The position numbers and the translations under genes were made by a program. Under the pieces are notes generated by a model. The model ran no database searches, was not told the DNA's origin, and saw nothing but the letters and a program-made list of their open reading frames with translations. A DNA stretch of 64,000 nucleotides from sequence record OP292222.1. One strand, 5' to 3'. This document shows positions 1 through 11,060 of this stretch, one piece after another; position 1 is the stretch's first letter; every line of letters begins with the position of its first letter. This stretch comes from Escherichia phage Esco_phi_B-01.

Positions 1-183
1 CGGAAGTTTACGGTTATAATCTAGAAGACGAATTCTCCCATCCCATTGCCCGTAACGGTATTTAGGGTTAAATTTATATCCATCAGCTTCAAAGCTGAAA
101 TAGTCTCTGAGTTCGTAGAAGGTGGATTCATCACACTCAACACGAACATGACTAAAATTATCAAAATGTACTTGAATTTGCAT
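1..183 (-). CDS. uvsW: UvsW helicase, N-terminal 61 codons only (gene runs off window start)
   Basis: Minus-strand translation from ATG at 183 reads MQIQVHFDNFSHVRVECDESTFYELRDYFSFEADGYKFNPKYRYGQWDGRIRLLDYNRKLP, closely matching recalled T4 UvsW N-terminus. Confidence 0.8.
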   Translation of the reverse strand, partial: MQIQVHFDNFSHVRVECDESTFYELRDYFSFEADGYKFNPKYRYGQWDGRIRLLDYNRKLP

Positions 184-197
184 GTCTAATTCTCAGT

Positions 198-205
198 TAT
201 AAATA
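198..205 (+). promoter_or_regulatory. T4-type late promoter TATAAATA upstream of inh-like/hoc
   Basis: Exact TATAAATA 34 nt upstream of ATG 239; a minus-strand TATAAATA at 223-230 faces uvsW. Confidence 0.4.
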
Positions 206-238
206 TAATTATATTTATACACCAACAAGAGACTAATT

Positions 239-910
239 ATGGATACTCAATATATTGAAGAGCTTCGTGCACTCGAAGATAAAAAAGAAGCTAAAGCTAA
301 GTTAATCGAATACGGCGAACAATTCGGTTTAAAACTTAAGAAAACCCGTTCGTTTGATAATTTGATTATCGATATCTCTGAAGGCCTTAAAGCCTTGGCT
401 GATGAACCACTTCCAGAAACCGAAGGTTTGTCTATTTCCGATTTGATTGATGCTGCTGACGAACTCACAGGTGCTAATGAATTTGTTGATGGCGCGGAAC
501 CTGCCAAAGAAGAGGCTACCCTATTATTTGATGCCCCTGAAGCGGTAGTTGAAGTTATTGAGGTAGCCGAACTTCCTAAGGTAGAGATTATTGAAGAAGA
601 CGTCCCGTTTGTCGAAGAGAAATTCAAAGAGGCTGTAACCAAGGTTATTGAATCGGAAAAACCTGTATTCTCTTTGCCTGAAAACTTTAGCCCTAATCTT
701 TTACTCATTGGTAAAAACCCAGGGTATTGTACTGTGCCTTGGTGGATTTATCAATGGATTACCGAAACCCCTGATTGGAAAGAGCGTCCTAAAGATTTCC
801 AACACCCATCTGCCCACCAAACACTATTCAGTCTGATTTATTACATTAATCGTAATGGTTCAGTATTAGTACGTGAAACGCGTAATTCATCTTTCGTAAC
901 TTTAAAATAA
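239..910 (+). CDS. Acidic head-associated protein, candidate Inh (prohead protease inhibitor) by position and size
   Basis: 223 aa, Glu/Asp-rich, between uvsW and hoc as T4 inh (226 aa); sequence not recalled independently. Confidence 0.5.
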   Translation: MDTQYIEELRALEDKKEAKAKLIEYGEQFGLKLKKTRSFDNLIIDISEGLKALADEPLPETEGLSISDLIDAADELTGANEFVDGAEPAKEEATLLFDAPEAVVEVIEVAELPKVEIIEEDVPFVEEKFKEAVTKVIESEKPVFSLPENFSPNLLLIGKNPGYCTVPWWIYQWITETPDWKERPKDFQHPSAHQTLFSLIYYINRNGSVLVRETRNSSFVTLK

Positions 911-919
911 GGGTAAAAT

Positions 920-2329
920 ATGGCTTTTACTGTAAGTATAGCCGGCGCTGCGTCTATTAAAATAGGCGAAAGCGCCAACTACACTGCTACCGCAACAGGT
1001 GCAGCTGTAGAAGGAACCGTTACATATGTATGGACCATTGACGGTGCTTCTAATCCGGAGGCAACCAATGTTTTGAAATATACCGGTGTGGCTCCAGCTG
1101 GTAAGAAAGTTTTAAAAGTAGTAGCAACTTCTACTCCAGCCGAAGGCGAACCTGAGGTAGCTGAAAAAACTTTTGAAGTTACCGTAGCTAATAAGACCAT
1201 TGGGGCTCTTTCTTTGACCTTAGACCCTACTTCTGTTTCTAAAGAAATTGGTCAATCCCAAGTTGTTACTGCTAACGTATCGGGTGTCCCTGCTGGCGCT
1301 ACAATTACTTATGTTTGGAAACGTAATACAACTGTAATTTCAGGTCAAACTGGTAAAACTATTACCATAACCGAAGCAGCGGCAGCGAATTACACTTTGA
1401 ACTGTGAAGTTACTGTTACCGCCCCTGAATATGACCCGGCTACAGCTACTAAAGGTATTGCGGTAACTTTTGTTAAGAAAACTATATCAGGCGCTTCCGT
1501 TACTTTAACACCGGCCTCAATTAGTACAGAGAAAGGCTCATCTGCACAGTTTAAAGCGGATGTAGTTGGCGCTCCTTCCGGCGTAAATGCAACTTATTCT
1601 TGGAAGAAAAATGGTTCTATTATTCCGGGCGAAAGCAGTAATACCCTTGCTGTCGATACATCTACAGTAGGTTCTTACACTATTGAAGTTTCGGTAGTCC
1701 TAAAAGGTGCGGATTATAATGATTTAACCGTTACCAAAACCGGAAGTGTAACAATTACTAAAAAGACCATGACAGGTGTTTCTGTTACTTTAGCGCCGGC
1801 CTCTATTAATACTCCGGAAGGAACTCCAGCTTCTTTTAAAGCTACCGTAGCTGGCGCCCCTGCTGGTGCTACTTTTGCATATTCTTGGAAGAAAGATGGT
1901 TCGCCAGTCGCCGGTACCACAGATACTTTAGTAGTCGATACAAGTGCTGAAGGTTCACAGGTTATTGAAGTTTCTGTTGTGGTTTCGGCTACCGACTATA
2001 ATCCTGTGACTGTCAAAAAATCTGGTAATGTAACAATTACGCCTAAAGTCGCTCCTGAACCTGAAGGCGAACTACCTTACGTCCACCCGCTGCCGGTTCG
2101 TAATTCAGCGTATATTTGGGCCGGTTGGTGGGTTATGGATGAAATCCAGAAAATGACACTTGAAGGTAAAGATTGGAAAACTGATGACCCTGATAGCAAT
2201 TATTATCTCCATCGCTATACTCTTCAAAAAATGGTTGCCGATTATCCAGAGGTTGATGTACAAGAATCACGAAATGGAAGAATTATCCATCGTTCGGCTC
2301 TTGACACAGGTATAATTTATTTTTACTAA
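920..2329 (+). CDS. hoc: Hoc outer capsid decoration protein, four Ig-like repeats plus C-terminal capsid-binding domain
   Basis: 469 aa; four repeats of pattern TY.WK..G....G...TL.V.....G.Y..EV.V; C-terminal WAGWWVMDEIQ...YPEVDVQESRNG. Confidence 0.8.
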   Translation: MAFTVSIAGAASIKIGESANYTATATGAAVEGTVTYVWTIDGASNPEATNVLKYTGVAPAGKKVLKVVATSTPAEGEPEVAEKTFEVTVANKTIGALSLTLDPTSVSKEIGQSQVVTANVSGVPAGATITYVWKRNTTVISGQTGKTITITEAAAANYTLNCEVTVTAPEYDPATATKGIAVTFVKKTISGASVTLTPASISTEKGSSAQFKADVVGAPSGVNATYSWKKNGSIIPGESSNTLAVDTSTVGSYTIEVSVVLKGADYNDLTVTKTGSVTITKKTMTGVSVTLAPASINTPEGTPASFKATVAGAPAGATFAYSWKKDGSPVAGTTDTLVVDTSAEGSQVIEVSVVVSATDYNPVTVKKSGNVTITPKVAPEPEGELPYVHPLPVRNSAYIWAGWWVMDEIQKMTLEGKDWKTDDPDSNYYLHRYTLQKMVADYPEVDVQESRNGRIIHRSALDTGIIYFY

Positions 2330-2343
2330 TTTTGGCTAAATAA

Positions 2344-2372
2344 AAACGGGAGAGCGAAAGCTCTCCCGTTTT
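2344..2372. terminator. Bidirectional hairpin terminator between convergent hoc and hoc-like gene
   Basis: cgggagagc-gaaa-gctctcccg stem-loop flanked by A and T runs. Confidence 0.6.
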
Positions 2373-2373
2373 G

Positions 2374-3234
2374 TTATATGACATTTAATGTCAGGTGCTT
2401 CCTATTCAAAATATACCCATTTCTTGATTCCTGTATTTCTACATCAGGATATCGTGACAAAAGTTCTGCCACTTTTGCGAGCTCACACTTATACCTAAAA
2501 TTGCTATCTTCTATATTGATAGCCCAATCCTGGTTTTTATCAAGGGCACCTTTTATCTCATCCAACACCCACCAGCCTATCCACATGTGGGCCCTATTTC
2601 GGCCACCTGGATAAGACAAATACTGATTTAAATCATGTGAGTATATAAATGGACACACTTCAGGTTCAGGTAAATCACCATCCATAGGCATAATATCTAC
2701 CGTAACTATATCATGATACGGATTATAAGCACCTTCGGCTGTGGCAGAGACATTAAGAGAATATGTCCCATACATAGAAGGCTTTATATCAACATCTAAA
2801 TCCTTTACATTTGAAACCATTTTATCATATTTCCACCATTCACACTCTACTTCGGCCCAGGGTGTGGTACCCATAGAAATTAAAGGTTGTAAAGAAACTT
2901 TTTGACCTATTTCAGCCTTTATGATAGCATCTAAATTTTCTATGGAAATAACTATATCTCTAGGCTCTATCCCGATTTCCAAAACAAAATCTTCGCTTTG
3001 AAAAGTCTCTTGTGTTAGCTTATCAGTGGCTATCGCATAATAAGTCCCTGCTGCAGGAAACCCTACATCCCAAAGATTTAGATACATCGGGTCTTCTTTA
3101 TCTAATAATGGAACGTTTACACCGTTTTTGTACCATTTTATATCGACATCGGTTAAAGATTCAGATAAAACAGCCCTAAGAGTTACCGTTCTCCCAACCA
3201 ATTCATAATGAGGTCCATTTACTTGTATAGACAT
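2374..3234 (-). CDS. Hoc-family paralog: Ig-like N-terminal domains plus Hoc-type C-terminal domain
   Basis: 286 aa; C-terminal HMWIGWWVLDEIK...YPDVEIQESRNGYILNR aligns with Hoc C-terminus in this window; Ig-like motifs IKWYKNG, AGTYYAIATD. Confidence 0.75.
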   Translation of the reverse strand: MSIQVNGPHYELVGRTVTLRAVLSESLTDVDIKWYKNGVNVPLLDKEDPMYLNLWDVGFPAAGTYYAIATDKLTQETFQSEDFVLEIGIEPRDIVISIENLDAIIKAEIGQKVSLQPLISMGTTPWAEVECEWWKYDKMVSNVKDLDVDIKPSMYGTYSLNVSATAEGAYNPYHDIVTVDIMPMDGDLPEPEVCPFIYSHDLNQYLSYPGGRNRAHMWIGWWVLDEIKGALDKNQDWAINIEDSNFRYKCELAKVAELLSRYPDVEIQESRNGYILNRKHLTLNVI

Positions 3235-3245
3235 GCTACCTCCAA

Positions 3246-4253
3246 TTAATAAGGGAAACTAACCATTTTAACCAATATAGGTTTATTAGAATCTACACTG
3301 CGCCCGTGTTGAAATACCGTTATTTCTGAAATTGTTTTAGAACCCCATTCCTTTAAGGTTATATTAATAGGACGTAGCCCGTTATATGCCGCACTTACTA
3401 TAACAAATGAGCCTGTAGGAGACAAAGTCTTAGTTCCGCCACCGGTAGTAACCGTTCCACCCGAAACACTAGGAGCAACAAAGTGATAATCACAATATCG
3501 GGTAGTCCCACCTTTACTTAAAATGCTGTATTCTATTTGGTTGTTAACCAATCTAACTCTAAGAACCGTATTGGCGACCCCAGGTATTTTTATTTCGCCG
3601 TACCCAGCAGCAACGTTGGTATACTTATGGAATGAAAACAAATCTGTACCATCTTTACCAGGTTCGCCTTGAGGACCCTGAGGACCTAGAGGGCCAGTAG
3701 CTCCGTCAAGTCCATCAATCCCATCCACCCCAGGAGGACCTTGAACACCTTGCGGACCCTGCTCACCATCTTTACCCGGGATACCCTGTTCGCCTTGTGC
3801 ACCCTGAGAAGCCAATAAGGCCCAGTAAAGGCTGTTTTCTTCAGCAGGATTATTACCGGTAGAATCCTGAACGCAAAAATAAGAAGCCCCATTGTACCCT
3901 ACTGCATCATCCTTAACATAGGCTGTTGCAGCACTCCATGTTCCTTTCCAATTTAGACCCACAGGGCCTACAGGACCAGCCGGGCCTCTCGGTCCTACAA
4001 TGCTTTCACCTTTAGGGCCAGGGATACCAGGGGATAACATTTCTTCGGATATCCCCAAATGAGCCAGAACTTCAGCTCTTCCGGATTTACTAACCAAGCC
4101 TAAGCCATACGAATTACTCCCTACCAATCTTGCCGGGTTTATAAGACTTTCTTTAGTAAGAATTTTTTCAAAAGGGATAACAGTATCCGATTCCTTTAAA
4201 GCAATACCGGAAAAGGTCCCTCGACCGTCATGACCAAAAATAGAATCTGCCAT
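3246..4253 (-). CDS. Collagen-like repeat protein with embedded CBM5/12-like carbohydrate-binding motif
   Basis: 335 aa; Gly-X-Y runs (GIPGPKGESIVGPRGPAGPVGPVG and about 17 triplets GAQGEQGIPGKDGEQGPQGVQGPPGVDGIDGLDGATGPLGPQGPQGEPGKDG) flanking W..TAY..DAVGYNGASYFCVQ...W; GGAG RBS. Confidence 0.75.
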   Translation of the reverse strand: MADSIFGHDGRGTFSGIALKESDTVIPFEKILTKESLINPARLVGSNSYGLGLVSKSGRAEVLAHLGISEEMLSPGIPGPKGESIVGPRGPAGPVGPVGLNWKGTWSAATAYVKDDAVGYNGASYFCVQDSTGNNPAEENSLYWALLASQGAQGEQGIPGKDGEQGPQGVQGPPGVDGIDGLDGATGPLGPQGPQGEPGKDGTDLFSFHKYTNVAAGYGEIKIPGVANTVLRVRLVNNQIEYSILSKGGTTRYCDYHFVAPSVSGGTVTTGGGTKTLSPTGSFVIVSAAYNGLRPINITLKEWGSKTISEITVFQHGRSVDSNKPILVKMVSFPY

Positions 4254-4292
4254 TTAATACTCCTGTTTACAAGTTAAAAATCCTATGTTAAG

Positions 4293-4535
4293 ATGGCTTT
4301 ACCAAACTCAACAAGAGAATTTGTTATGGATAAGGTTAAAGTACATTTTTTACATGAATCTGGACTTAATTTTATAGAAATTGCTAAAAAATTAGGTGGT
4401 ACTGCTAAAGACATGGCTAAAGCATGGGTTGATGTGGAACAGGCCAAGGCCAAATTTAAGTCAAAAGAGAAAGTAGTATATCGCAAACGTCTAATCAATA
4501 AGGTTCGGCGCAAAGCGCGTTCTAGTTCAAAGTAA
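4293..4535 (+). CDS. Small basic protein, possible helix-turn-helix
   Basis: 80 aa, Lys/Arg-rich C-terminus; weak RBS, start uncertain (alternative ATG 4326). Confidence 0.4.
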   Translation: MALPNSTREFVMDKVKVHFLHESGLNFIEIAKKLGGTAKDMAKAWVDVEQAKAKFKSKEKVVYRKRLINKVRRKARSSSK

Positions 4536-4563
4536 TATGCTTTAAATTTAGGTGTGTTATAAT
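4536..4563 (+). promoter_or_regulatory. Candidate T4 middle promoter (MotA box TGCTTTA plus extended -10 TGTTATAAT) for rnlB
   Basis: ATGCTTTA at 4537-4544, TATAAT at 4558-4563 with TGn, 13 bp apart. Confidence 0.3.
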
Positions 4564-4649
4564 GGGTCTAGGTCCTTCCGTTAAACCATTTGGCTTGGTG
4601 ACAGAAGATTACTAGCTCTTCTATTTAATTATATTTATTATGGTGATTT

Positions 4650-5657
4650 ATGTTCAAGAAATATAGCAGTCTGGAAAACCACTACAACAGTAAGTTTATC
4701 GAAAAACTCCGTACCAATGGTTTGACTGGTGGCGAATGGGTAGCACGTGAGAAGATTCATGGAACCAACTTTAGTTTAATCATAGAACGTGACGCAGTCA
4801 CATGCGCCAAGCGCACGGGTCCAATTCTCCCTGCTGAAGATTTCTATGGTTATGAAATTGTACTTAAGAACTATGCTGATTCTATTAAATCCGTACAAGA
4901 TATTATGGAAACTTCGGCAGCCGTATCTTATCAAGTTTTCGGTGAATTCGCTGGAACAGGCATTCAGAAGAACGTTGATTACGGTGATAAAGATTTTTAT
5001 GTATTTGACATTATTGTTACAACCGAAAGTGGCGATGTGACTTATGTCGACGATTATATGATGGAATCATTTTGTAAGACGTTCAAATTTAAAACGGCGC
5101 CACTTTTAGGTCGTGGTAAATTTGAAGACCTTATTAAATTGCCAAATGATTTGGATTCCGTCCTTCCTGATTATAATTTTACAGTAGATAATGTCGGGCT
5201 AGCCGAAGCTAATGCTCATGTGTGGAATGCTGAAGCAAAAGGCGAAGTATTTACCGCTGAAGGGTACGTATTAAAACCTTGTTATCCACTTTGGCTCCCT
5301 AATGGAAATCGTGTAGCGATTAAATGTAAGAACTCTAAATTCAGCGAGAAGAAAAAGTCTGATAAGCCTATTAAAGTTGCAGTAGTATTATCTCAAGACG
5401 ATTTAGATTTATTACAACAATTCACTGATTATGTGACTGTTAACCGTATTAACAACGTTATCAGTAAGATTGGTGAAGTATCACCTAAAGATTTCGGAAA
5501 GGTAATGGGACTGACGGTCCAAGATATTTTGGAAGAGGCAGCCCGTGAAGAATTAGAATTAACCGATGCAGAAAACCCTGTTGAAGTTAAAAAGCAGCTC
5601 GTTGAGTGTGTAAAAGATACGCTACGGGCCGTGTGGATTGAATTAGTATCCAAATAA
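4650..5657 (+). CDS. rnlB: RNA ligase 2 (Rnl2)
   Basis: 335 aa; near-colinear with recalled T4 Rnl2 ([20 protein letters not shown]..., KIHGTN adenylyltransferase motif I). Confidence 0.9.
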
Positions 5658-5662
5658 ACAGT

Positions 5663-5692
5663 AAAGGGACCTTACGGTCCCTTTTATTTTTC
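5663..5692. terminator. Bidirectional hairpin terminator between rnlB and gp24 paralog
   Basis: gggacc-ttac-ggtccc then T-run. Confidence 0.6.
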
Positions 5693-6964
5693 TAGTGGTG
5701 GAAGTTTAACACCAAGATAAGAACTCAACTGGCTTTGGTTAGCCATTTTGTCCATATCAGAGCCATCAATAATGCGGGCTTCTTTATCGTCCTTAGCGAC
5801 GGTATAAGGGTTTGCAGTCAATGCATAACGAGCAAGCAATGCTACTGTAGGTTGTAAGCTTTCCGGGTCAACAATAACCTTAAATTCACCTACTGAAGTA
5901 TCACCTTCTTCATCAACCACATCCAAACCTTCCGTATAAGGCGCATAATATAAAGATGCGACCGTCTGTCCTTCACCCATCTGGGCATTTACACCAACAA
6001 TAACATAATCACATGGACTATTCATATCAGCATAAAGAGGCAGACCATTCTTTAATACACCATAGGCCAATTCGTCTTGGTCTTCCTTTTTCTCAACCCA
6101 ACCGGAAGCGGCGAGAATAGCAGCACAACGAGAACTAGCTACTGCATAAGTCCCAGCGAAAGAAGTTTGACGTTGGACGGCAGAGTTCATCTCACACATG
6201 TAATAATATAATGTACGAGCACGGTCCTGGGCGTTATCGTAACGTGGGTTGGTAAGGTCTAATACACCTTTTTCAGAAACACCTTGGACTTTAAAACGAG
6301 AACTCACCGTAATTAATGACTGTAATACATCCTTATTAATTTCTTCTGCCATTTGGATGCCTAGCAGATTTTCAACGAAATTAGGAGCATTAAACCCGTT
6401 TGATTCTAGGTCCTGGGCTAATTCGACTGTCAATGAAGTTTTCAGTTTACGTGATTTAACTTCAGATTGCCATTTATCAATACGGAAGCCTGCTTCAGCA
6501 ATTTCAGGATGGCCTTGTTCGAATTTAGAAGTAATAGCAGCATCCGATACCATACGAATATGTCCGGCTGCCACTGCTTCAGAAATAACTTCACCGAGGT
6601 CGGTTTCTGTGGTTCCAGCGAAAGGAGATGCTTCTAGAACTTTAAACACCACACTTTCAAACTGGAACATATCGCCGGCTGCATAAGCTGTAGACGAATC
6701 GGCAAATTCAGGAATATTTTCACGTTCCGACATACCAATCTGGCCCGCAAATGTAGCACCACCAAGATAAGTCATTTTGTCGTCAGGGTTAAGTACACGA
6801 ACCCCGTACAGAGCAGCAACAGGTTGGCTTGTTTTTTGTTCAGCAACTAGGGCTTTAAAGATTCGTTTATTAGTTGCTTGGGTGTATGAAAGAAGAGCAG
6901 GACGGCCAACCGAGTTGGCAGCCGTCAATGTGGATTCTTTAATTAGGTCTATAATCTTAGACAT
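5684..6964 (-). CDS. Second gp24-family head vertex protein (diverged paralog)
   Basis: 426 aa; gp24/gp23 fold motifs shared with adjacent gp24 (RIDKWQSEVKSRKLKT, ELAQDLESNGF, EINKDVLQSLITVS) but strongly diverged. Confidence 0.85.
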   Translation of the reverse strand: MSKIIDLIKESTLTAANSVGRPALLSYTQATNKRIFKALVAEQKTSQPVAALYGVRVLNPDDKMTYLGGATFAGQIGMSERENIPEFADSSTAYAAGDMFQFESVVFKVLEASPFAGTTETDLGEVISEAVAAGHIRMVSDAAITSKFEQGHPEIAEAGFRIDKWQSEVKSRKLKTSLTVELAQDLESNGFNAPNFVENLLGIQMAEEINKDVLQSLITVSSRFKVQGVSEKGVLDLTNPRYDNAQDRARTLYYYMCEMNSAVQRQTSFAGTYAVASSRCAAILAASGWVEKKEDQDELAYGVLKNGLPLYADMNSPCDYVIVGVNAQMGEGQTVASLYYAPYTEGLDVVDEEGDTSVGEFKVIVDPESLQPTVALLARYALTANPYTVAKDDKEARIIDGSDMDKMANQSQLSSYLGVKLPPLEK

Positions 6965-8247
6965 TAATCAGCCTCGTAAATAATTGCTGGAAGTTTAACA
7001 CCAAGCAGATAAGACATATTACTCTGTCCGGCCATTAAATCCATATTGGTGGCATCGATAACACGAGCTTCTTTATCGTCTTTAGCTACGGTGTACGGGT
7101 TAGCGGACAGTGCATAACGAACCATCAGAGAAATAGAAGGCTGTAATGAATCCGGGTCGACAATAACCTTATAAGCACCAACGTGTTCTGGGTCGTCTAA
7201 ATCCAGGCCTTCTGTATACGGGGCATAGAAAATAGAACCGACAACTTCATTACCGCCATAGTTCTCTTTAACACCTACGATAACATAATCCAATGGGCTG
7301 TTAACGTCACAGAACAATGGTAATCCATTCAACAAATAACCATAGGCAGTTTCTGGGAGCCAATTATTATCTTCAGGTCTATGTTTTAACCAGCCAGAAC
7401 CTGCAAGCATTGCAGCCACACGACTTGAAGCCACAACAAACGTACCGGAATAAGAAGTAGTTTTCTGGATTTCAGAATTCATCTCACAAACAATTTCATA
7501 AAGTTTACGTGCAGATTCTGGAGCACTATCATAAGTCAAATCGATGATGCCATTATCAGATACACCCGTAACTTTATAGCGTTTAGATACGGTTATCAGA
7601 GATTGCAGAACGTCTTTATTAATTTCATCTGCCATTACTGTAGCCAGGAGGTCTTCTAAGAATGCAGGGGCGTCGAAGCCATTTGATTCCATATCCTGGG
7701 CCAATTCTACAGTCAAAGCAGTCTTCAATTTACGGGTCTTAACAGGAGCATTCCATTTATTAACCTGGAATACAGCATCAGAGATTTCTACATTACTCGC
7801 TTCGAATTTAGTGGTATGGGCTGCATCAGGAACCAGACGACATGTTAATGACACCAAACCTTCTTGAAGGGCATCAGCCAATCCTGTAGCGCTAGTGGAT
7901 GCGAGTGGGCTTGCTTGAAGAGCCTTATAAACCACATTCTGATACTTAAAGTAGTCACCCTTGGCAATCGCCTGGGCTTTATCTGTGAGTTCTGGGATAG
8001 TTTCACGGTCTTTAGAACCAACTTCACCACCATAAACAGCACCAGTTTGGAAACTGAATTCATTATCAGGGGTAAGATATTTGACACCGTACAATGCAGC
8101 AATAGGCTGACTAGTACGTTGTTCAGCGATGATATCGCGATAAATTAGTTTAGTGGTAGCACGGGTCAAAGCAACAAGATTAGGGCGACCCAATGAGTTG
8201 CTGGTAGTAGTTGTTGACTCGCGCAGTAATTCGTTAATCTTTGCCAT
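6964..8247 (-). CDS. 24: Head vertex protein gp24
   Basis: 427 aa; MAKINELLRESTTT... matches recalled T4 gp24; stop overlaps start of paralog at 6964. Confidence 0.9.
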   Translation of the reverse strand: MAKINELLRESTTTTSNSLGRPNLVALTRATTKLIYRDIIAEQRTSQPIAALYGVKYLTPDNEFSFQTGAVYGGEVGSKDRETIPELTDKAQAIAKGDYFKYQNVVYKALQASPLASTSATGLADALQEGLVSLTCRLVPDAAHTTKFEASNVEISDAVFQVNKWNAPVKTRKLKTALTVELAQDMESNGFDAPAFLEDLLATVMADEINKDVLQSLITVSKRYKVTGVSDNGIIDLTYDSAPESARKLYEIVCEMNSEIQKTTSYSGTFVVASSRVAAMLAGSGWLKHRPEDNNWLPETAYGYLLNGLPLFCDVNSPLDYVIVGVKENYGGNEVVGSIFYAPYTEGLDLDDPEHVGAYKVIVDPDSLQPSISLMVRYALSANPYTVAKDDKEARVIDATNMDLMAGQSNMSYLLGVKLPAIIYEAD

Positions 8248-8275
8248 TGCGCTTTCCTTATTGAGGGTATATGTT

Positions 8276-8283
8276 TATTTATA
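8276..8283 (-). promoter_or_regulatory. Late promoter TATAAATA (minus) for gene 24
   Basis: Reverse complement of tatttata, about 30 nt upstream of gp24 start. Confidence 0.45.
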
Positions 8284-8288
8284 AAGTT

Positions 8289-8340
8289 GTTTACAGCAAG
8301 GTTCTCACGTGTTACTATAGTCCTATCAAAACACGAGGAG
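8289..8340 (+). promoter_or_regulatory. Early promoter with stem-loop (PeSL-like) driving the 88-aa ORF
   Basis: GTTTAC, 18-bp spacer, TACTAT, then conserved AGTCCTATCAAAAC. Confidence 0.5.
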
Positions 8341-8347
8341 ATTAAAA

Positions 8348-8614
8348 ATGAACAAATTAAACTTTATCCGTACCACGCTTTCTAACCTTGACAAAGACAT
8401 CAAAGCTCTGGTAGAAAAATTTGGTACCAATCCTAACGGTAATGCAGTTAATGCATTGGTTAAGAAATACGAAGCTCTGGCTTATGAAACCGACTTCTGG
8501 TGGAACGGCGAATACTCTACCCATACCAAAGACAAATATGGTAACTGGCTGAAAATCCAAGAAAATCGTATTGACTTCCGTGATATCATCAACCGTCGAG
8601 TTAAGATTGCATAG
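8348..8614 (+). CDS. Hypothetical protein at the position occupied by segD in T4
   Basis: 88 aa; GGAG RBS; own promoter and downstream terminator. Confidence 0.5.
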   Translation: MNKLNFIRTTLSNLDKDIKALVEKFGTNPNGNAVNALVKKYEALAYETDFWWNGEYSTHTKDKYGNWLKIQENRIDFRDIINRRVKIA

Positions 8615-8629
8615 TACAGAAACAAGAAT

Positions 8630-8647
8630 GGGAGACCGAAGTCTCCC
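8630..8647. terminator. Hairpin terminator (tetraloop) shared by gp23 and the 88-aa ORF
   Basis: gggagac-cgaa-gtctccc. Confidence 0.6.
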
Positions 8648-8663
8648 ATAATAAGGTTAGGTA

Positions 8664-10223
8664 TTAGATACCTTTAACATAAACGCGACGGAAGTAACCA
8701 TTCAGACCGAGGCTGTTAACGATGTCAGGCATACCGCTCTGAATACGTTTGGTAGGAGCCTGTGCAGACGGGTCAGCGAACGGGTTAATACCGATACCGT
8801 AACGAGTTTTGAAGCCCATTACCGGCTGGAAGTTCTTCGGATCGGAACCGCGCAGTGGGGTAAGTGCAACGTAAGGAGCGTAGTAGATACCTGCGTCCAT
8901 TTCGTTGGAACCTTTATAACCGATGGTGAAGTAATCAGCACGGGCATACTGGTCGATGTAAACGCGATATTTACCACCAAGAACACCGGCAAATACTGCT
9001 TTAGTGGTGTCAACGTTGAAACCTTGACCCAGACCTTGAGCTGCATAACTTACAGAAGTATCAACTGCAGCCAGTACGTTAACTACGTTACGGGAAGCGA
9101 TGATGAAGTTACCAGCACCACGACCGGTCTGACGAGCGATTTCGGCTGCTTCTTTATCAATCTGGAACAGAAGGGCTTTAAAGCTCTCACCGGCCCAACG
9201 AGCACCACGGATATCAATCGGGTCCTGGAAGTCAAACACACCAGCTTTAGCGCCAACGGTGTTGGTCATACCAGATTTACCAACCTGTGCAGAGTAGTTA
9301 ATCCAATCGATAACTTCACGGTTGATTTCGAGCATAATTTCGGTAGCAAGGATACCGGACAGTTCAGCATCTGCATCCATACCGTGTACTGCACGAAGGT
9401 CCTGTGCCAGTTCGATGGAATAGCTTGCTTTCAGCTGACGGGATTTAGCTTCGATAACTTGTTTATCGATACGGAAGCCCATTTCGTTCCACGGGTTATC
9501 CTGAGAACCGTTAAAGCCTTCCTGAAGTTCAGCGATAGAAGTAGCCATACCTTCAGCCAATTCAGCCAGCTGACCAGCTTCCAACAGAGCAGTTACGGCA
9601 ACATCCAGTTTAGCGGCATCAGTAGCAGCAGCATCAACGGTTACGGCTTCAACAGCCTGGAAGTGTGCAGCACCGGTAGCTTCGAAGAAGTGAGAATAAA
9701 TTTTACCAACTTCCAGAACTTTACCTGCAGCCAGTGCTTCAAAAGTCTGAGCAGCGCCCTGACCAGAGAACATAGCGTTCGGAGCATACATCGGGTGGAA
9801 AGCTTCTTTAGCGCCAGCAGCGATAGGGTCTTTACCGTATACTGCACGCAGTGCAAATACCTGGCCGGTAGGGTTATTCAGAGGCTGAACACCACAAATA
9901 TCAAAAGCAATCAGATGAGGAATAGCACGACGAACCATACCCATTACTGCCGGCCCAATCTGAGTTACAGCACCAGAGGTCTGGCCAGCTGCGATATTGG
10001 TAGCATCATAACCGTGGTCACCACCGATTTCAGCTTCGGTCAGGAAAGAACCAAATGCTTCAGAGATTTTTTCGTCACGATATTCAGGAGCGGTCAGAAT
10101 ATCTTGTTCCTGGTTTTCGAAAATTTTAGCGATGATAGCTTGTTTAGAAGCACCAACGATTTCAGGAAGAGCTTCGTTTTCCAGCAGAGCGGACCATTTT
10201 TGAACTAATGCATTCTTTTTCAT
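8664..10223 (-). CDS. 23: Major capsid protein gp23
   Basis: 519 aa; long stretches identical to recalled T4 gp23 (AEIGGDHGY..., QIGPAVMGMVRRAIP, DNPWNEMGFRIDKQVIEAKSRQLKA). Confidence 0.97.
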   Translation of the reverse strand: MKKNALVQKWSALLENEALPEIVGASKQAIIAKIFENQEQDILTAPEYRDEKISEAFGSFLTEAEIGGDHGYDATNIAAGQTSGAVTQIGPAVMGMVRRAIPHLIAFDICGVQPLNNPTGQVFALRAVYGKDPIAAGAKEAFHPMYAPNAMFSGQGAAQTFEALAAGKVLEVGKIYSHFFEATGAAHFQAVEAVTVDAAATDAAKLDVAVTALLEAGQLAELAEGMATSIAELQEGFNGSQDNPWNEMGFRIDKQVIEAKSRQLKASYSIELAQDLRAVHGMDADAELSGILATEIMLEINREVIDWINYSAQVGKSGMTNTVGAKAGVFDFQDPIDIRGARWAGESFKALLFQIDKEAAEIARQTGRGAGNFIIASRNVVNVLAAVDTSVSYAAQGLGQGFNVDTTKAVFAGVLGGKYRVYIDQYARADYFTIGYKGSNEMDAGIYYAPYVALTPLRGSDPKNFQPVMGFKTRYGIGINPFADPSAQAPTKRIQSGMPDIVNSLGLNGYFRRVYVKGI

Positions 10224-10244
10224 GTGTTGTATAACCTTATTAAA

Positions 10245-11060
10245 TTAAGAAATTCGAGATGCTGCGATTGCAGACAGGTCCGCGAAGGACAGGGTAGGCT
10301 TAGCGCCTTTTTCTTCAACTGCTTCCGAAATATAATTCAGTGCTGCAGCATCGTCTTCAGTTTTATTTATAGCGGCTTCGGTGATTGGTTTTTCAACGTC
10401 AGTCTGGCCTTTAACCATTTCAACGATAGCGCCAATTTTTTTACCAAATGCATCGGAATAATCCATGCCTTCTACCAGAGAACTAACTTTTTCTTTCTGA
10501 GATTCAGTCAGGTCTTTAGTTGCTTCAGTCAACGCAACTTCACGCTGTACGTAATTAATATATGCGTCACGCTTACCAACTTCTTCGAACAGACGAGCGG
10601 TTTCATCTTTCTGCTCTTGGAGTTCTTCTTCCATTTCAGCAACAACATCCACTGCTTCTTCTGGAACAACCACATTGTGTTCAACAAACAGTTCTTTCAT
10701 ACCCATCAACATGGATTCGAACAGTTCGGCTTTAATACCTTTATCAACAGCCAGCTGGTTTTCAGCCATCCATTCTTTAGCGACGTGGTCAAGGAAACGA
10801 CCGGCAGCTTCTTGGATTTTCTTATCAGCTTTTTCTTCAGCTTCTTCTTTATTTTTCTCAACTTCTTCTTCCGCTTTTTCAGCGATTTTAGCGATGTGAG
10901 ATTCAGCCAGTTTAACGGCGTGTTGCTTGACGGTAGCTTCGAATACAGTGCCGAAAGTTTCTTTTGCTTCCGGAGAAATATTAACTGATTCGAAAATACT
11001 GTCAAGAGCAACGGAAGCATCAATATTCTGTGCTTCGGCAATCAGTTGTTCTTTAAGCAT
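10245..11060 (-). CDS. 22: Prohead core scaffold protein gp22
   Basis: 271 aa, acidic coiled-coil, between gp21 and gp23. Confidence 0.85.
   Translation of the reverse strand: MLKEQLIAEAQNIDASVALDSIFESVNISPEAKETFGTVFEATVKQHAVKLAESHIAKIAEKAEEEVEKNKEEAEEKADKKIQEAAGRFLDHVAKEWMAENQLAVDKGIKAELFESMLMGMKELFVEHNVVVPEEAVDVVAEMEEELQEQKDETARLFEEVGKRDAYINYVQREVALTEATKDLTESQKEKVSSLVEGMDYSDAFGKKIGAIVEMVKGQTDVEKPITEAAINKTEDDAAALNYISEAVEEKGAKPTLSFADLSAIAASRIS

What the first reader, a model, noticed from the sequence alone, without database searches (positions are those of the whole stretch)
2374..3234. Second Hoc-family gene convergent with hoc
The 286-aa protein shares the Hoc C-terminal capsid-binding region (HMWIGWWVLDEIK...YPDVEIQESRNGYILNR versus hoc WAGWWVMDEIQ...YPEVDVQESRNGRIIHR), but its N-terminal Ig-like domains are different. 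This suggests a second, alternative decoration protein competing for or complementing Hoc sites.
Basis: seen in the sequence. Interest (0 to 1): 0.7.

Follow-up and report, generated by a model that had tools for sequence, protein, structure and literature searches.

The report
Second short Hoc, paired with fibre gene
The gene is a real, intact second copy of the phage head-decoration protein Hoc that databases already annotate in close relatives; the new point is that it always sits beside a collagen-like fibre gene, which suggests the two proteins work together on the capsid.

Summary
Window 2374-3234 (-) encodes a 286-aa protein. Its C-terminal ~92 residues are a Hoc capsid-binding domain (BLASTP vs the neighbouring hoc E=7e-19; T4 Hoc PDB chain E=3.6e-16; PHROG "Hoc-like" E=3.7e-46). 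AlphaFold2 gives two Ig-like domains ahead of it.

This is not new. The window is a Dhakavirus (T4-like). The 94%-identical JS10 gene has long been annotated "hoc head outer capsid protein". Phage 65 annotates "hoc-2, second copy". Fokine et al. 2023 describe second short Hocs.

The gene is under purifying selection (dN/dS 0.096). It keeps R300, W306, W309/W310, D313 and the ESRNG loop, and gp23's docking loop is 18/19 identical to T4. Docking at hexamer centres is therefore likely but untested.

I found no description of the following. Hoc2 forms a conserved two-gene cassette with the upstream collagen/CBM5_12 fibre gene (3246-4253 -). The fibre's rare N-terminal domain was found intact only next to a Hoc2-type gene, across several genera. 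Hoc2's distal Ig1 is more conserved than Ig2, and Ig1 distances track the fibre N-domain (Mantel rho 0.69, p≈0.0008).

My best inference is that Hoc2 anchors the fibre to the capsid. The probability of that step is about 0.4.

The parts
2374..3234 (-). hoc2 CDS, 286 aa: a short Hoc paralogue made of Ig1, Ig2 and a Hoc C-terminal capsid-binding domain.
   Evidence: ORF. BLASTP vs Hoc1 E=7e-19. PHROG 1149 E=3.7e-46. PDB T4 Hoc E=3.6e-16. 94% identical to JS10 ACL78403 'hoc head outer capsid protein'. dN/dS 0.096.
2959..3234 (-). Hoc2 Ig-like domain 1 (aa 1-92). This is the capsid-distal domain and the best conserved non-C-terminal part of the Hoc2 lineage. Its motif is WYK..(I/V)P.L..E(D/N)P..L.L(W/Y)D(V/I).(F/Y)PAAG.YY.
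   Evidence: AF2 beta-sandwich, pLDDT mostly above 90. Identity to dhabil/CGG4-1/phage 65: Ig1 57.6/43.5/42.7% against Ig2 37/31.5/26.4%. Ig1 is retained and Ig2 is lost in Cronus (166 aa) and in L018 (195 aa).
2677..2958 (-). Hoc2 Ig-like domain 2 (aa 93-186). It is the most variable domain and is dispensable in some orthologues.
   Evidence: AF2; domain identities.
2377..2652 (-). Hoc2 C-terminal capsid-binding domain (aa 195-286). It keeps R212, W218, W221-W222, D225, Q268, E269-S-R-N-G273 and Y274, which correspond to T4 R300, W306, W309/310, D313, Q354, ESRNG 355-359 and Y360. Three contact residues differ: F196, Y198 and H216 in place of T4 Y293, H295 and Y304. There is a 9-aa insertion in the beta1-beta2 loop and a 3-aa insertion before the last helix.
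   Evidence: Alignment with T4 Hoc. Motif positions. Residue roles from PMC10385173. AF2 secondary structure beta198-201, beta214-219, H221-232, H249-261, beta264-269.
3239..3243 (-). GGAGG ribosome-binding site for hoc2. It lies 5 nt before the ATG and 11 nt after the fibre gene's stop codon, which implies co-transcription with the fibre gene.
   Evidence: Sequence read.
2342..2373 (.). Bidirectional intrinsic terminator between the convergent hoc and hoc2 genes: AAAAA-CGGGAGAGC-GAAA-GCTCTCCCG-TTTTG.
   Evidence: Sequence. The terminator scan hits both strands.
3246..4253 (-). Upstream cassette partner: a 335-aa collagen-like fibre protein. Layout: N-domain aa 1-75 (4029-4253); G-X-Y repeats; CBM5/12-like insert at about aa 100-148; G-X-Y repeats aa 149-203; beta-rich C-terminal domain aa 204-335.
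   Evidence: Pfam Collagen E=1.2e-10; CBM_5_12 E=7e-5 here, and above Pfam's cutoff in the dhabil homologue. PHROG 5073 'tail fiber protein' E=1.5e-69. Alignments. AF2 C-terminal domain pLDDT 71-90. Adjacency to Hoc2-type genes across genera.
920..2329 (+). Canonical hoc (Hoc1, 469 aa, four Ig-like domains plus C-domain). It sits directly after inh, as in T4. It is the presumed competitor for the same docking site.
   Evidence: PHROG 1149 E=1.5e-120 and Pfam Ig_3/I-set hits. C-domain 84.6% identical to T4 Hoc.
9198..9254 (-). gp23 loop (aa 324-342 of the window's gp23, equal to T4 Gly326-Arg344). This loop forms the Hoc docking site at the hexamer centre. It is 18/19 identical to T4, and the residues equivalent to Asp336 and Arg344 are conserved.
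   Evidence: Alignment with T4 gp23. Role of the loop from PMC10385173.
4632..4639 (-). AATAAATA, a one-mismatch match to the T4 late promoter TATAAATA, about 380 nt upstream of the fibre gene. It is the only late-promoter-like site upstream of the cassette in this window. Its status is uncertain.
   Evidence: Scans. It is conserved in JS10 and dhabil. Exact TATAAATA lies 42-75 nt upstream of the orthologous cassettes in TH15, ABTNLsp5, Phynn and L020.

Best explanation
SHOWN. The ORF is a functional member of the Hoc family. It has two Ig-like domains and a complete Hoc C-terminal capsid-binding domain. It belongs to an old 'short Hoc2' lineage that is distinct from the canonical Hoc next to it. 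In every intact case examined, this lineage is paired with a collagen-like fibre gene that carries a rare, dedicated N-terminal domain.

INFERRED, about 0.8. Hoc2 is made late. It docks one copy per expanded gp23* hexamer centre through the conserved R/WW/D/ESRNG surface. It therefore shares the ~155 sites with Hoc1, which would give a mosaic capsid surface.

INFERRED, about 0.4. Hoc2 is the capsid anchor for the fibre. Its conserved distal Ig1 domain would hold the fibre's conserved N-terminal domain. Some hexamers would then carry a trimeric collagen-like fibre with a CBM5/12 carbohydrate-binding module and a variable tip, used for adhesion to host or environmental glycans.
For: Family membership.

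Key contact or structural residues named by Fokine 2023 are conserved in Hoc2.

The docking loop of gp23 is 18/19 identical to T4.

Selection: dN/dS 0.096 against JS10, with 47 synonymous and 20 non-synonymous changes. pI 4.5, acidic like Hoc.

Separate lineage: Hoc2-type C-domains of Dhakavirus and Gelderlandvirus cluster apart from all Hoc1-type C-domains.

Cassette evidence:
- The fibre N-domain occurs in only 22 of 50,697 phage records and in 27 of 1.84 billion protein cluster representatives, some of which are spurious TPR hits.
- In 20 of those 22 records a Hoc2-type gene lies directly downstream on the same strand.
- Direct inspection shows the pair in JS10, dhabil, CGG4-1, phage 65, ABTNLsp5, Phynn, Cronus and TH15, and in metagenomic contigs L020 and L022.
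- In L018 the gene order is swapped but the two genes are still adjacent.
- No intact fibre gene without Hoc2 was seen. Hoc2 without the fibre occurs only in IME08, where a 24-codon remnant of the fibre gene remains.

Ig1 evidence: Ig1 is conserved more than Ig2, and it is the domain kept in the two-domain variants. Mantel test: fibre N-domain vs Ig1 rho 0.69, p≈0.0008; fibre N-domain vs Hoc2 C-domain rho 0.17, p=0.21.

Late expression: exact late promoter TATAAATA lies 42-75 nt upstream of four orthologous cassettes. In Cronus the cassette directly follows genes 23, 24a and 24b on the same strand.

Precedent: the collagen-like trimer gp12 of SPP1 decorates hexamer centres.
Against: There is no proteomic, cryo-EM or binding evidence for any Hoc2. 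I found none in the searchable literature.

This window has no exact late promoter upstream of the cassette.

Three gp23-contacting residues differ from T4: Y293F, H295Y and Y304H. The beta1-beta2 loop, which carries the gp23 Asp336-contacting residues in T4, has a 9-aa insertion with low AF2 confidence. The site or its affinity could therefore differ.

Against the adaptor step in particular:
- A monomeric Hoc2 would have to hold a trimeric fibre.
- IME08 keeps Hoc2 without the fibre.
- Between this window and JS10 the fibre gene is 99.5% identical but hoc2 only 92.2%, so the two genes recombine independently at fine scale.
- The N-domain could not be modelled (pLDDT 32-68), and no complex prediction was possible.
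- The Mantel test rests on only 8 cassettes, and the two genes are physically linked.
Confidence: 0.45

Rival explanations
1. Independent alternative decoration. Hoc2 binds hexamer centres on its own and competes with or complements Hoc1. Its different Ig domains would give a second adhesion specificity. The collagen-like fibre is an unrelated virion or tail fibre that merely travels in the same hyperplastic region.
For: All the Hoc-family evidence applies. IME08 keeps Hoc2 after deletion of the fibre gene. hoc2 and the fibre gene show different divergence from JS10. PHROG and GenBank call the fibre 'tail fiber(-like) protein'. The hoc / 24 / rnlB region is a known site of accessory gene turnover; for example, JS10 has an extra ORF and QL01 has no cassette.
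Against: Hitch-hiking does not explain several things. The rare N-domain was never found intact away from a Hoc2-type gene across at least six genera and two subfamilies. Adjacency survives an order swap (L018). The distal Ig1 is the conserved domain, which is the opposite of the canonical Hoc pattern of variable Ig domains and a conserved C-domain. Ig1 distances track the N-domain, while the C-domain does not.
Confidence: 0.35
2. Hoc2 docks at a different site from Hoc1, for example on pentamers of the second vertex paralogue gp24b or on a subset of hexamers. The altered beta1-beta2 loop would be the reason.
For: There is a 9-aa loop insertion and three changed contact residues. Dhakaviruses, CGG4-1 and Cronus carry both two gp24 genes and Hoc2.
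Against: gp24a and gp24b lack the loop that forms the Hoc site in gp23. QL01 has both gp24 paralogues but no hoc2 or fibre cassette. The central ESRNG loop, which contacts all six gp23 subunits, and the WW pair are intact.
Confidence: 0.08
3. hoc2 is a decaying or non-functional duplicate of hoc.
For: There is no canonical late promoter in this window. Decayed versions exist elsewhere: a PspYZU05 remnant and an AP1 N-domain stub.
Against: The ORF is intact and has a strong RBS. dN/dS is 0.096, equal to hoc1. Full-length orthologues are kept from coliphages to Aeromonas phage 65. The AF2 model is confident. It is not a recent copy of the neighbouring hoc: the C-domains are 36% identical, against 85% for Hoc1 vs T4.
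Confidence: 0.03

Closest known systems
T4 Hoc (highly immunogenic outer capsid protein; PDB 5vf3/8t1x C-domain, RB49 Hoc 3shs Ig domains)
   Same: [quoted passage not shown] Both proteins are acidic. The gp23 docking loop is also conserved in this phage.
   Different: Hoc2 has two Ig domains rather than three, or four in the window's own Hoc1. The C-domain is only ~35% identical to T4. It has a 9-aa insertion in the beta1-beta2 loop and the changes Y293F, H295Y and Y304H. The gene lies in an inverted cassette rather than after inh. Its distal Ig1 is conserved rather than variable. It is always linked to a fibre gene.
Annotated second Hocs: JS10 EpJS10_0177, IME08 ADI55501, dhabil_241, Salmonella phage CGG4-1 'Hoc I', Aeromonas phage 65 'hoc-2 (second copy of the hoc gene)'
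   Same: These are orthologues at 94%, 51%, 51%, 43% and 34% identity over 98-100% of the length. They have the same domain order and, except in IME08, the same upstream fibre gene.
   Different: There is no functional difference to report. The window's allele matches only JS10 closely. Among otherwise ~90-94% identical Dhakaviruses the cassette exists as highly divergent alleles (50% aa identity) or is absent, as in QL01.
Second short Hoc of Serratia phage Muldoon (314 aa, two Ig plus C-domain) and the Hoc-like proteins of Enterobacter phage PG7 (Fokine et al. 2023, PMC10385173)
   Same: The concept is the same: one phage encodes more than one protein carrying the Hoc capsid-binding domain, so the capsid can display different ligands.
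   Different: I did not test whether Muldoon or PG7 proteins belong to the Hoc2 lineage. The fibre N-domain search found no Serratia or Enterobacter phage. The paper does not mention a linked fibre gene.
SPP1 gp12, a collagen-like trimeric capsid decoration at hexamer centres
   Same: It is a collagen-like (G-X-Y) trimeric protein displayed on a tailed-phage capsid at quasi-six-fold positions. It serves as a functional analogy for the fibre partner.
   Different: gp12 binds the capsid directly. Here a separate Hoc-type protein is proposed to supply the capsid-binding domain. No sequence relationship was tested.

Membership tests
Hoc family (T4-like head outer capsid / decoration protein) | A C-terminal ~95-aa capsid-binding domain homologous to T4 Hoc 281-376. 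| tested here: met
   phmmer vs PDB T4 Hoc E=3.6e-16, covering T4 residues 222-370. PHROG 1149 E=3.7e-46 and PHROG 21694 E=1.3e-10. BLASTP vs the window's Hoc1 E=7e-19.
Hoc family (T4-like head outer capsid / decoration protein) | The conserved Glu-Ser-Arg-Asn-Gly loop between beta3 and beta4. Mutations there impair capsid binding. | tested here: met
   E269-S270-R271-N272-G273 is present and invariant across all Hoc1 and Hoc2 sequences aligned. The role of the loop is taken from PMC10385173.
Hoc family (T4-like head outer capsid / decoration protein) | The highly conserved contact or structural residues Tyr293, His295, Arg300, Trp309, Trp310 and Asp313. | tested here: inconclusive
   Arg, Trp-Trp and Asp are conserved (R212, W221, W222, D225). 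Tyr293 is Phe196 and His295 is Tyr198, and Tyr304 is His216. There is a 9-aa insertion next to Arg.
Hoc family (T4-like head outer capsid / decoration protein) | An N-terminal string of Ig-like domains. | tested here: met
   AF2 predicts two beta-sandwich domains at 1-~90 and ~93-183, pLDDT mostly 87-96. The top Foldseek PDB hit is RB49 Hoc Ig domains 3shs at E=6.4e-13, followed by many Ig-superfamily proteins. Pfam Ig models do not detect them.
Hoc family (T4-like head outer capsid / decoration protein) | Binds as a monomer at the centre of expanded gp23* hexamers and is present in virions. | not testable with these tools
   Only indirect evidence is available: the gp23 docking loop is 18/19 identical to T4. 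I found no proteomics or cryo-EM for any Hoc2.
Hoc family (T4-like head outer capsid / decoration protein) | Late (virion-gene) expression. | tested here: inconclusive
   This window has no exact TATAAATA upstream of the cassette, only AATAAATA at 4632-4639. Exact late promoters lie upstream of the orthologous cassettes in TH15, ABTNLsp5, Phynn and L020. The cassette is on the same strand as gene 24 in all loci seen.
Short-Hoc2 / collagen-like-fibre cassette (defined here) | A Hoc2-type gene immediately adjacent, on the same strand, to a gene whose product starts with the M-x-D/E-x-x-L-F/Y-GHDGRG ... LGI N-domain. | tested here: met
   Window fibre gene 3246-4253 and hoc2 2374-3234 are separated by an 11-nt gap. 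N-domain alignment across 7 cassettes. Co-occurrence.
Short-Hoc2 / collagen-like-fibre cassette (defined here) | The conserved distal Ig1 motif (WYK...P.L..E.P..L.L[WY]D[VI].[FY]PAAG.YY). | tested here: met
   Present at aa 33-72 of the window protein. Conserved in JS10, dhabil, IME08, CGG4-1, phage 65, TH15, ABTNLsp5, Cronus and L022.
Collagen-like capsid decoration of the SPP1 gp12 type (considered for the fibre partner) | Direct, reversible binding of a collagen-like trimer to hexamer centres. | not testable with these tools
   G-X-Y repeats are present (Pfam Collagen E=1.2e-10). Oligomeric state and binding site are unknown. The AF2 monomer is uninformative for the N-domain.

The most novel reading that the evidence does not exclude
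Hoc2 is not just another decoration. It would be a dedicated adaptor: its Hoc C-domain plugs into the gp23 hexamer centre, and its conserved distal Ig1 domain captures the N-terminal domain of the neighbouring collagen-like, CBM5/12-bearing trimeric fibre. A subset of T4-like phages, from coliphages to Aeromonas phages, would then carry long exchangeable capsid fibres on a mosaic Hoc1/Hoc2 surface. This would be a two-component, modular capsid-appendage system not described for Straboviridae.
Probability: 0.35. Interest if true: 0.65.

Novelty: new member of a known kind. Interest (0 to 1): 0.42.

Why it matters
Hoc is the standard model of a non-essential, Ig-bearing capsid decoration. It is used for phage display and vaccines and is invoked in mucus adherence.

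A second Hoc that shares the same sites would make the capsid surface a tunable mosaic. That matters for anyone using JS10/CLB_P2-type Dhakaviruses in therapy or in gut-colonisation studies.

If Hoc2 is really the anchor of a collagen-like fibre, the Hoc C-domain would be a general socket for mounting large trimeric appendages on T4-type heads. That would be a natural precedent for engineered display, and a new route by which capsids, and not only tails, engage glycans.

Tried and rejected
1. Pfam on Hoc2, on the fibre N-domain and on the fibre C-domain gave no hits.

2. The JS98 genome paper (Zuber 2007), which might hold virion proteomics, is not in the library. Searches for Hoc combined with JS98, Dhakavirus, collagen-like, structural proteome, head fibers or CLB_P2 found nothing on Hoc2 incorporation or on the cassette.

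3. I tried a linker-fused N-domain plus Ig1 construct as a pseudo-complex AF2 prediction.

4. AF2 of the fibre monomer left the N-domain unmodelled (pLDDT 32-68). Foldseek PDB gave no significant match (best E≈3e-3, low TM). My guess of a C1q-like head was not supported.

5. I considered whether Hoc2 pairs with the extra vertex protein gp24b and rejected it. QL01 has 24a and 24b without the cassette, and both gp24 paralogues lack the docking loop.

6. In the N-domain search, the long 700-1000-aa hits with repeated matches are TPR-like 'GRAEVL..LGRL.EAL' repeats, which are spurious.

7. Lower-identity 'full-length' tblastn hits (Serratia 92A1, MN01, fHe-Yen9-01) are canonical Hocs in the inh-adjacent position, not Hoc2 orthologues.

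8. ORFs on the opposite strand inside 2374-3234 are short (54-78 aa) and have no support.
Full report
**What the window is.** The first 6 kb match Escherichia phage JS10 (Dhakavirus, Straboviridae) at 94.4% nucleotide identity over their full length.

The gene order is as follows:
- inh, 239-910 +
- hoc, 920-2329 +, 469 aa
- the ORF in question, 2374-3234 -, 286 aa
- a collagen-like 'tail fiber-like' gene, 3246-4253 -
- gp24.3, 4293-4535 +
- rnlB, 4650-5657 +
- two gp24 paralogues, 5684-6964 - and 6964-8247 -

The exact Hoc2 and fibre proteins of the window are on an NCBI contig of 170,483 bp.

**Observation check.** The ORF is real. It has a GGAGG ribosome-binding site 5 nt before its ATG and 11 nt after the stop codon of the fibre gene. 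It is convergent with hoc across a 44-bp spacer that holds a bidirectional hairpin terminator.

The C-terminal similarity to Hoc is highly significant:
- BLASTP E=7e-19, 30% identity over 197 aa
- phmmer against the T4 Hoc PDB chain 5vf3_Z, E=3.6e-16
- PHROG 'Hoc-like head decoration', E=3.7e-46

AlphaFold2 (pLDDT 84.9) gives two beta-sandwich domains (1-~90 and ~93-183), a short flexible linker, and a C-domain with the beta-beta-helix-helix-beta order described for T4 Hoc. The best PDB fold match is the Ig-domain string of RB49 Hoc (3shs, E=6e-13). Pfam does not see these Ig domains.

**Capsid-binding determinants.** Fokine et al. 2023 (PMC10385173) list the T4 Hoc residues that contact gp23* or hold the binding loop. 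In Hoc2, Arg300, Trp306, Trp309, Trp310, Asp313, Gln354, the Glu-Ser-Arg-Asn-Gly loop and Tyr360 are all conserved, as R212, W218, W221, W222, D225, Q268, E269-G273 and Y274.

Three residues differ: Tyr293 is Phe, His295 is Tyr and Tyr304 is His. The beta1-beta2 loop carries a 9-residue insertion.

The receptor side is unchanged. The gp23 loop Gly326-Arg344 is 18/19 identical to T4, with Asp336 and Arg344 kept. Both gp24 paralogues lack that loop.

Docking at hexamer centres, shared with Hoc1 (whose C-domain is 85% identical to T4's), is therefore the most economical inference. It remains an inference.

**Is it functional?** Against the JS10 orthologue there are about 47 synonymous and 20 non-synonymous differences. 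This gives dN/dS 0.096, the same as hoc1 at 0.091, and the value is uniform across the three domains. The protein is acidic (pI 4.54, net charge -20), like other Hocs.

**Is it new?** It is not:
- JS10 annotates both genes as 'hoc head outer capsid protein' (ACL78403 and ACL78404).
- IME08 and dhabil do the same.
- Salmonella phage CGG4-1 has 'Hoc I' and 'Hoc II'.
- Aeromonas phage 65 annotates 'hoc-2: second copy of the hoc gene'.
- Fokine et al. note second, shorter Hocs with two Ig domains in phage Muldoon, and Hoc-like proteins in PG7.

**It is an old paralogue, not a local duplicate.** Hoc2-type C-domains from Dhakavirus and Gelderlandvirus form a clade apart from all Hoc1-type C-domains. 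Hoc2 is only ~35% identical to its own neighbour's C-domain.

Full-length orthologues occur in about 18 phages: Dhakavirus, Gaprivervirus, Gelderlandvirus, Roskildevirus, Erwinia FBB1, Pantoea Phynn, and several Aeromonas phages including the Emmerichvirinae phage 65. This is out of 1,087 phage records with any Hoc-like match.

Some Dhakaviruses lack it entirely (QL01). Among the ones that have it, the alleles are only ~50% identical.

**The new context: a conserved two-gene cassette.** The upstream gene encodes five parts:
- a 75-aa N-terminal domain (M-x-D/E-x-x-L-F/Y-GHDGRG ... LGI)
- G-X-Y collagen repeats
- a CBM5/12-like insert
- more collagen repeats
- a variable beta-rich tip

The shaft is common in bacteria and phages (752 hits). 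The N-domain is very rare. It occurs in 22 of 50,697 phage records and in about 17 genuine 50%-identity clusters among 1.84 billion representatives.

Comparing coordinates shows that in 20 of those 22 records a Hoc2-type gene lies directly downstream on the same strand. The other two records are PspYZU05 and AP1. PspYZU05 holds a decayed pair: an N-domain stub plus a bare Hoc C-domain. AP1 holds an N-domain stub alone.

Weaker N-domains that tblastn missed were found by direct inspection upstream of Hoc2 in ABTNLsp5, Phynn and TH15. All three metagenomic fibre homologues I looked up are also paired. In L018 the order is reversed (hoc2 then fibre) yet adjacency is kept.

The only Hoc2 without a fibre gene is in IME08. 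There a 24-codon mini-ORF (MPDNPLYGHDGRG...STF*) is the scar of a deletion. Intact fibre was never seen without Hoc2, while Hoc2 is occasionally seen without the fibre. That is the asymmetry expected if the fibre depends on Hoc2.

**Pointers to a physical link.** In canonical Hocs the Ig domains vary and the C-domain is conserved. In Hoc2 the capsid-distal Ig1 is clearly better conserved than Ig2:
- Ig1 is 57.6/43.5/42.7% identical to dhabil/CGG4-1/phage 65.
- Ig2 is 37/31.5/26.4% identical to the same three.
- Against phage 65, Ig1 is even better conserved than the C-domain (35.8%).

Two natural two-domain variants (Cronus, 166 aa; L018, 195 aa) have lost Ig2 but kept Ig1 and the C-domain.

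Across eight cassettes, pairwise identities of the fibre N-domain correlate with those of Ig1 (Mantel rho 0.69, p≈0.0008) but not with the Hoc2 C-domain (rho 0.17, p=0.21). This fits a model in which Ig1 co-evolves with the fibre N-domain while the C-domain follows the resident capsid. The sample is small and the genes are linked, so this is suggestive only.

**Expression.** The window has no exact T4 late promoter upstream of the cassette. There is only AATAAATA about 380 nt upstream, conserved in JS10 and dhabil.

Exact TATAAATA lies 42-75 nt upstream of the cassette in TH15, ABTNLsp5, Phynn and L020. Near-matches are present in L022 and phage 65. In Cronus the cassette directly follows 23-24a-24b. 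In every locus the cassette is on the gene-24 strand. The cassette therefore belongs to the late, virion class in its relatives. In this window its promoter is unresolved.

**Mechanism.** I commit to the following.

Hoc2 is a late capsid protein that docks at gp23* hexamer centres through a Hoc-type C-domain. It shares the ~155 sites with Hoc1. Probability about 0.8.

Through its conserved Ig1, Hoc2 anchors the N-domain of the neighbouring collagen-like fibre. This would put carbohydrate-binding fibres with exchangeable tips on the head. Probability about 0.4.

SPP1 gp12, a collagen-like trimer at hexamer centres, is the nearest functional precedent. The main rival, at about 0.35, is that Hoc2 is an independent alternative decoration and the fibre merely co-travels.

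**What argues against the adaptor step:**
- There would be a monomer-to-trimer mismatch.
- IME08 keeps Hoc2 without the fibre.
- There is a recombination breakpoint between the two genes relative to JS10: the fibre gene is 99.5% identical and hoc2 92.2%.
- No structural or proteomic data exist.

**Verdict.** The added value is the cassette. It is well supported by comparative genomics and was not described in any literature I could search. Overall interest is moderate.

Noticed in passing
window 239-910 (+), inh: The C-terminal ~65 aa of Inh (the prohead protease inhibitor / minor head protein) align in register with the Hoc C-domain motifs (G-K/R-N ... WW ... DW ... RE[ST]RN). PHROG 1149 'Hoc-like' gives E=9.3e-5. 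BLASTP gives E=0.028 against Hoc1 and 0.07 against Hoc2. This would be a third protein in this locus with a diverged Hoc-type domain.
   Followed up: partly
window 5684-6964 (-) and 6964-8247 (-): There are two tandem gp24 vertex-protein paralogues, 57% identical to each other. 24a is 70% and 24b 58% identical to T4 gp24. They are annotated 24a/24b in JS10 and are also present in QL01, CGG4-1 and Cronus. Their presence is independent of the hoc2 cassette. What two vertex proteins do is unexplained.
   Followed up: partly
L022/L023 5388-5675 (-), metagenomic T4-like contigs: The canonical hoc position next to inh holds a 95-aa ORF that is a bare Hoc C-terminal capsid-binding domain with no Ig domains. 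The neighbouring Hoc2 (268 aa) is full length. PspYZU05 likewise has only a 132-aa C-domain Hoc.
   Followed up: partly
L003 (IME08) 3953-4110 (-): A 24-codon mini-ORF (MPDNPLYGHDGRGVSLELTSESTF*) lies upstream of IME08 hoc2. It fuses the first 13 codons and the last few codons of the fibre gene, which is the scar of a clean deletion. IME08 has a different collagen-like 'tail fiber-like' gene, lacking the N-domain, between rnlB and 24b.
   Followed up: yes
window 1-8250 vs JS10 (L001): Divergence from JS10 is strongly mosaic. Nucleotide identities are: fibre 99.5%, 24a 98.2%, inh 97.9%, hoc1 97.4%, hoc2 92.2% and rnlB 82.4%. JS10 also carries an extra 122-aa ORF between gp24.3 and rnlB that is absent here. 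This indicates frequent recombination in the region.
   Followed up: partly
window 2377-2652 (-), Hoc2 C-domain: Hoc2-type C-domains (and CGG4-1 gp168, PspYZU05, phage 65 hoc-2) carry a conserved Cys pair that T4 Hoc lacks: C194 in 'CPFIY' and C250 in 'YKCEL'. It may be a stabilising disulfide. The distance in the model could not be checked.
   Followed up: no
window 5663-5684: A strong bidirectional terminator hairpin (AAAGGGACC-TTAC-GGTCCCTTT) lies between the convergent rnlB and 24b genes. It would have to be read through if late transcripts from the 24a promoter (TATAAATA at 8276-8283) serve the fibre-hoc2 cassette.
   Followed up: no
Literature: bioRxiv 10.1101/810705 (CLB_P2): That study reports that a Pfam-based search found no Ig-like motifs in CLB_P2. 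Yet CLB_P2 encodes both a Hoc1 and a Hoc2-type gene. Hoc2's Ig domains are invisible to Pfam here as well. Pfam-based screens for mucus-adherence Ig domains therefore under-call this group.
   Followed up: partly
L006 (CGG4-1) 7883-10717 (-): CGG4-1 has a third Hoc-family gene of 944 aa, annotated as hypothetical, between Hoc I and Hoc II. Its C-domain forms a third type. A similar 944-aa gene is present in MN01.
   Followed up: no
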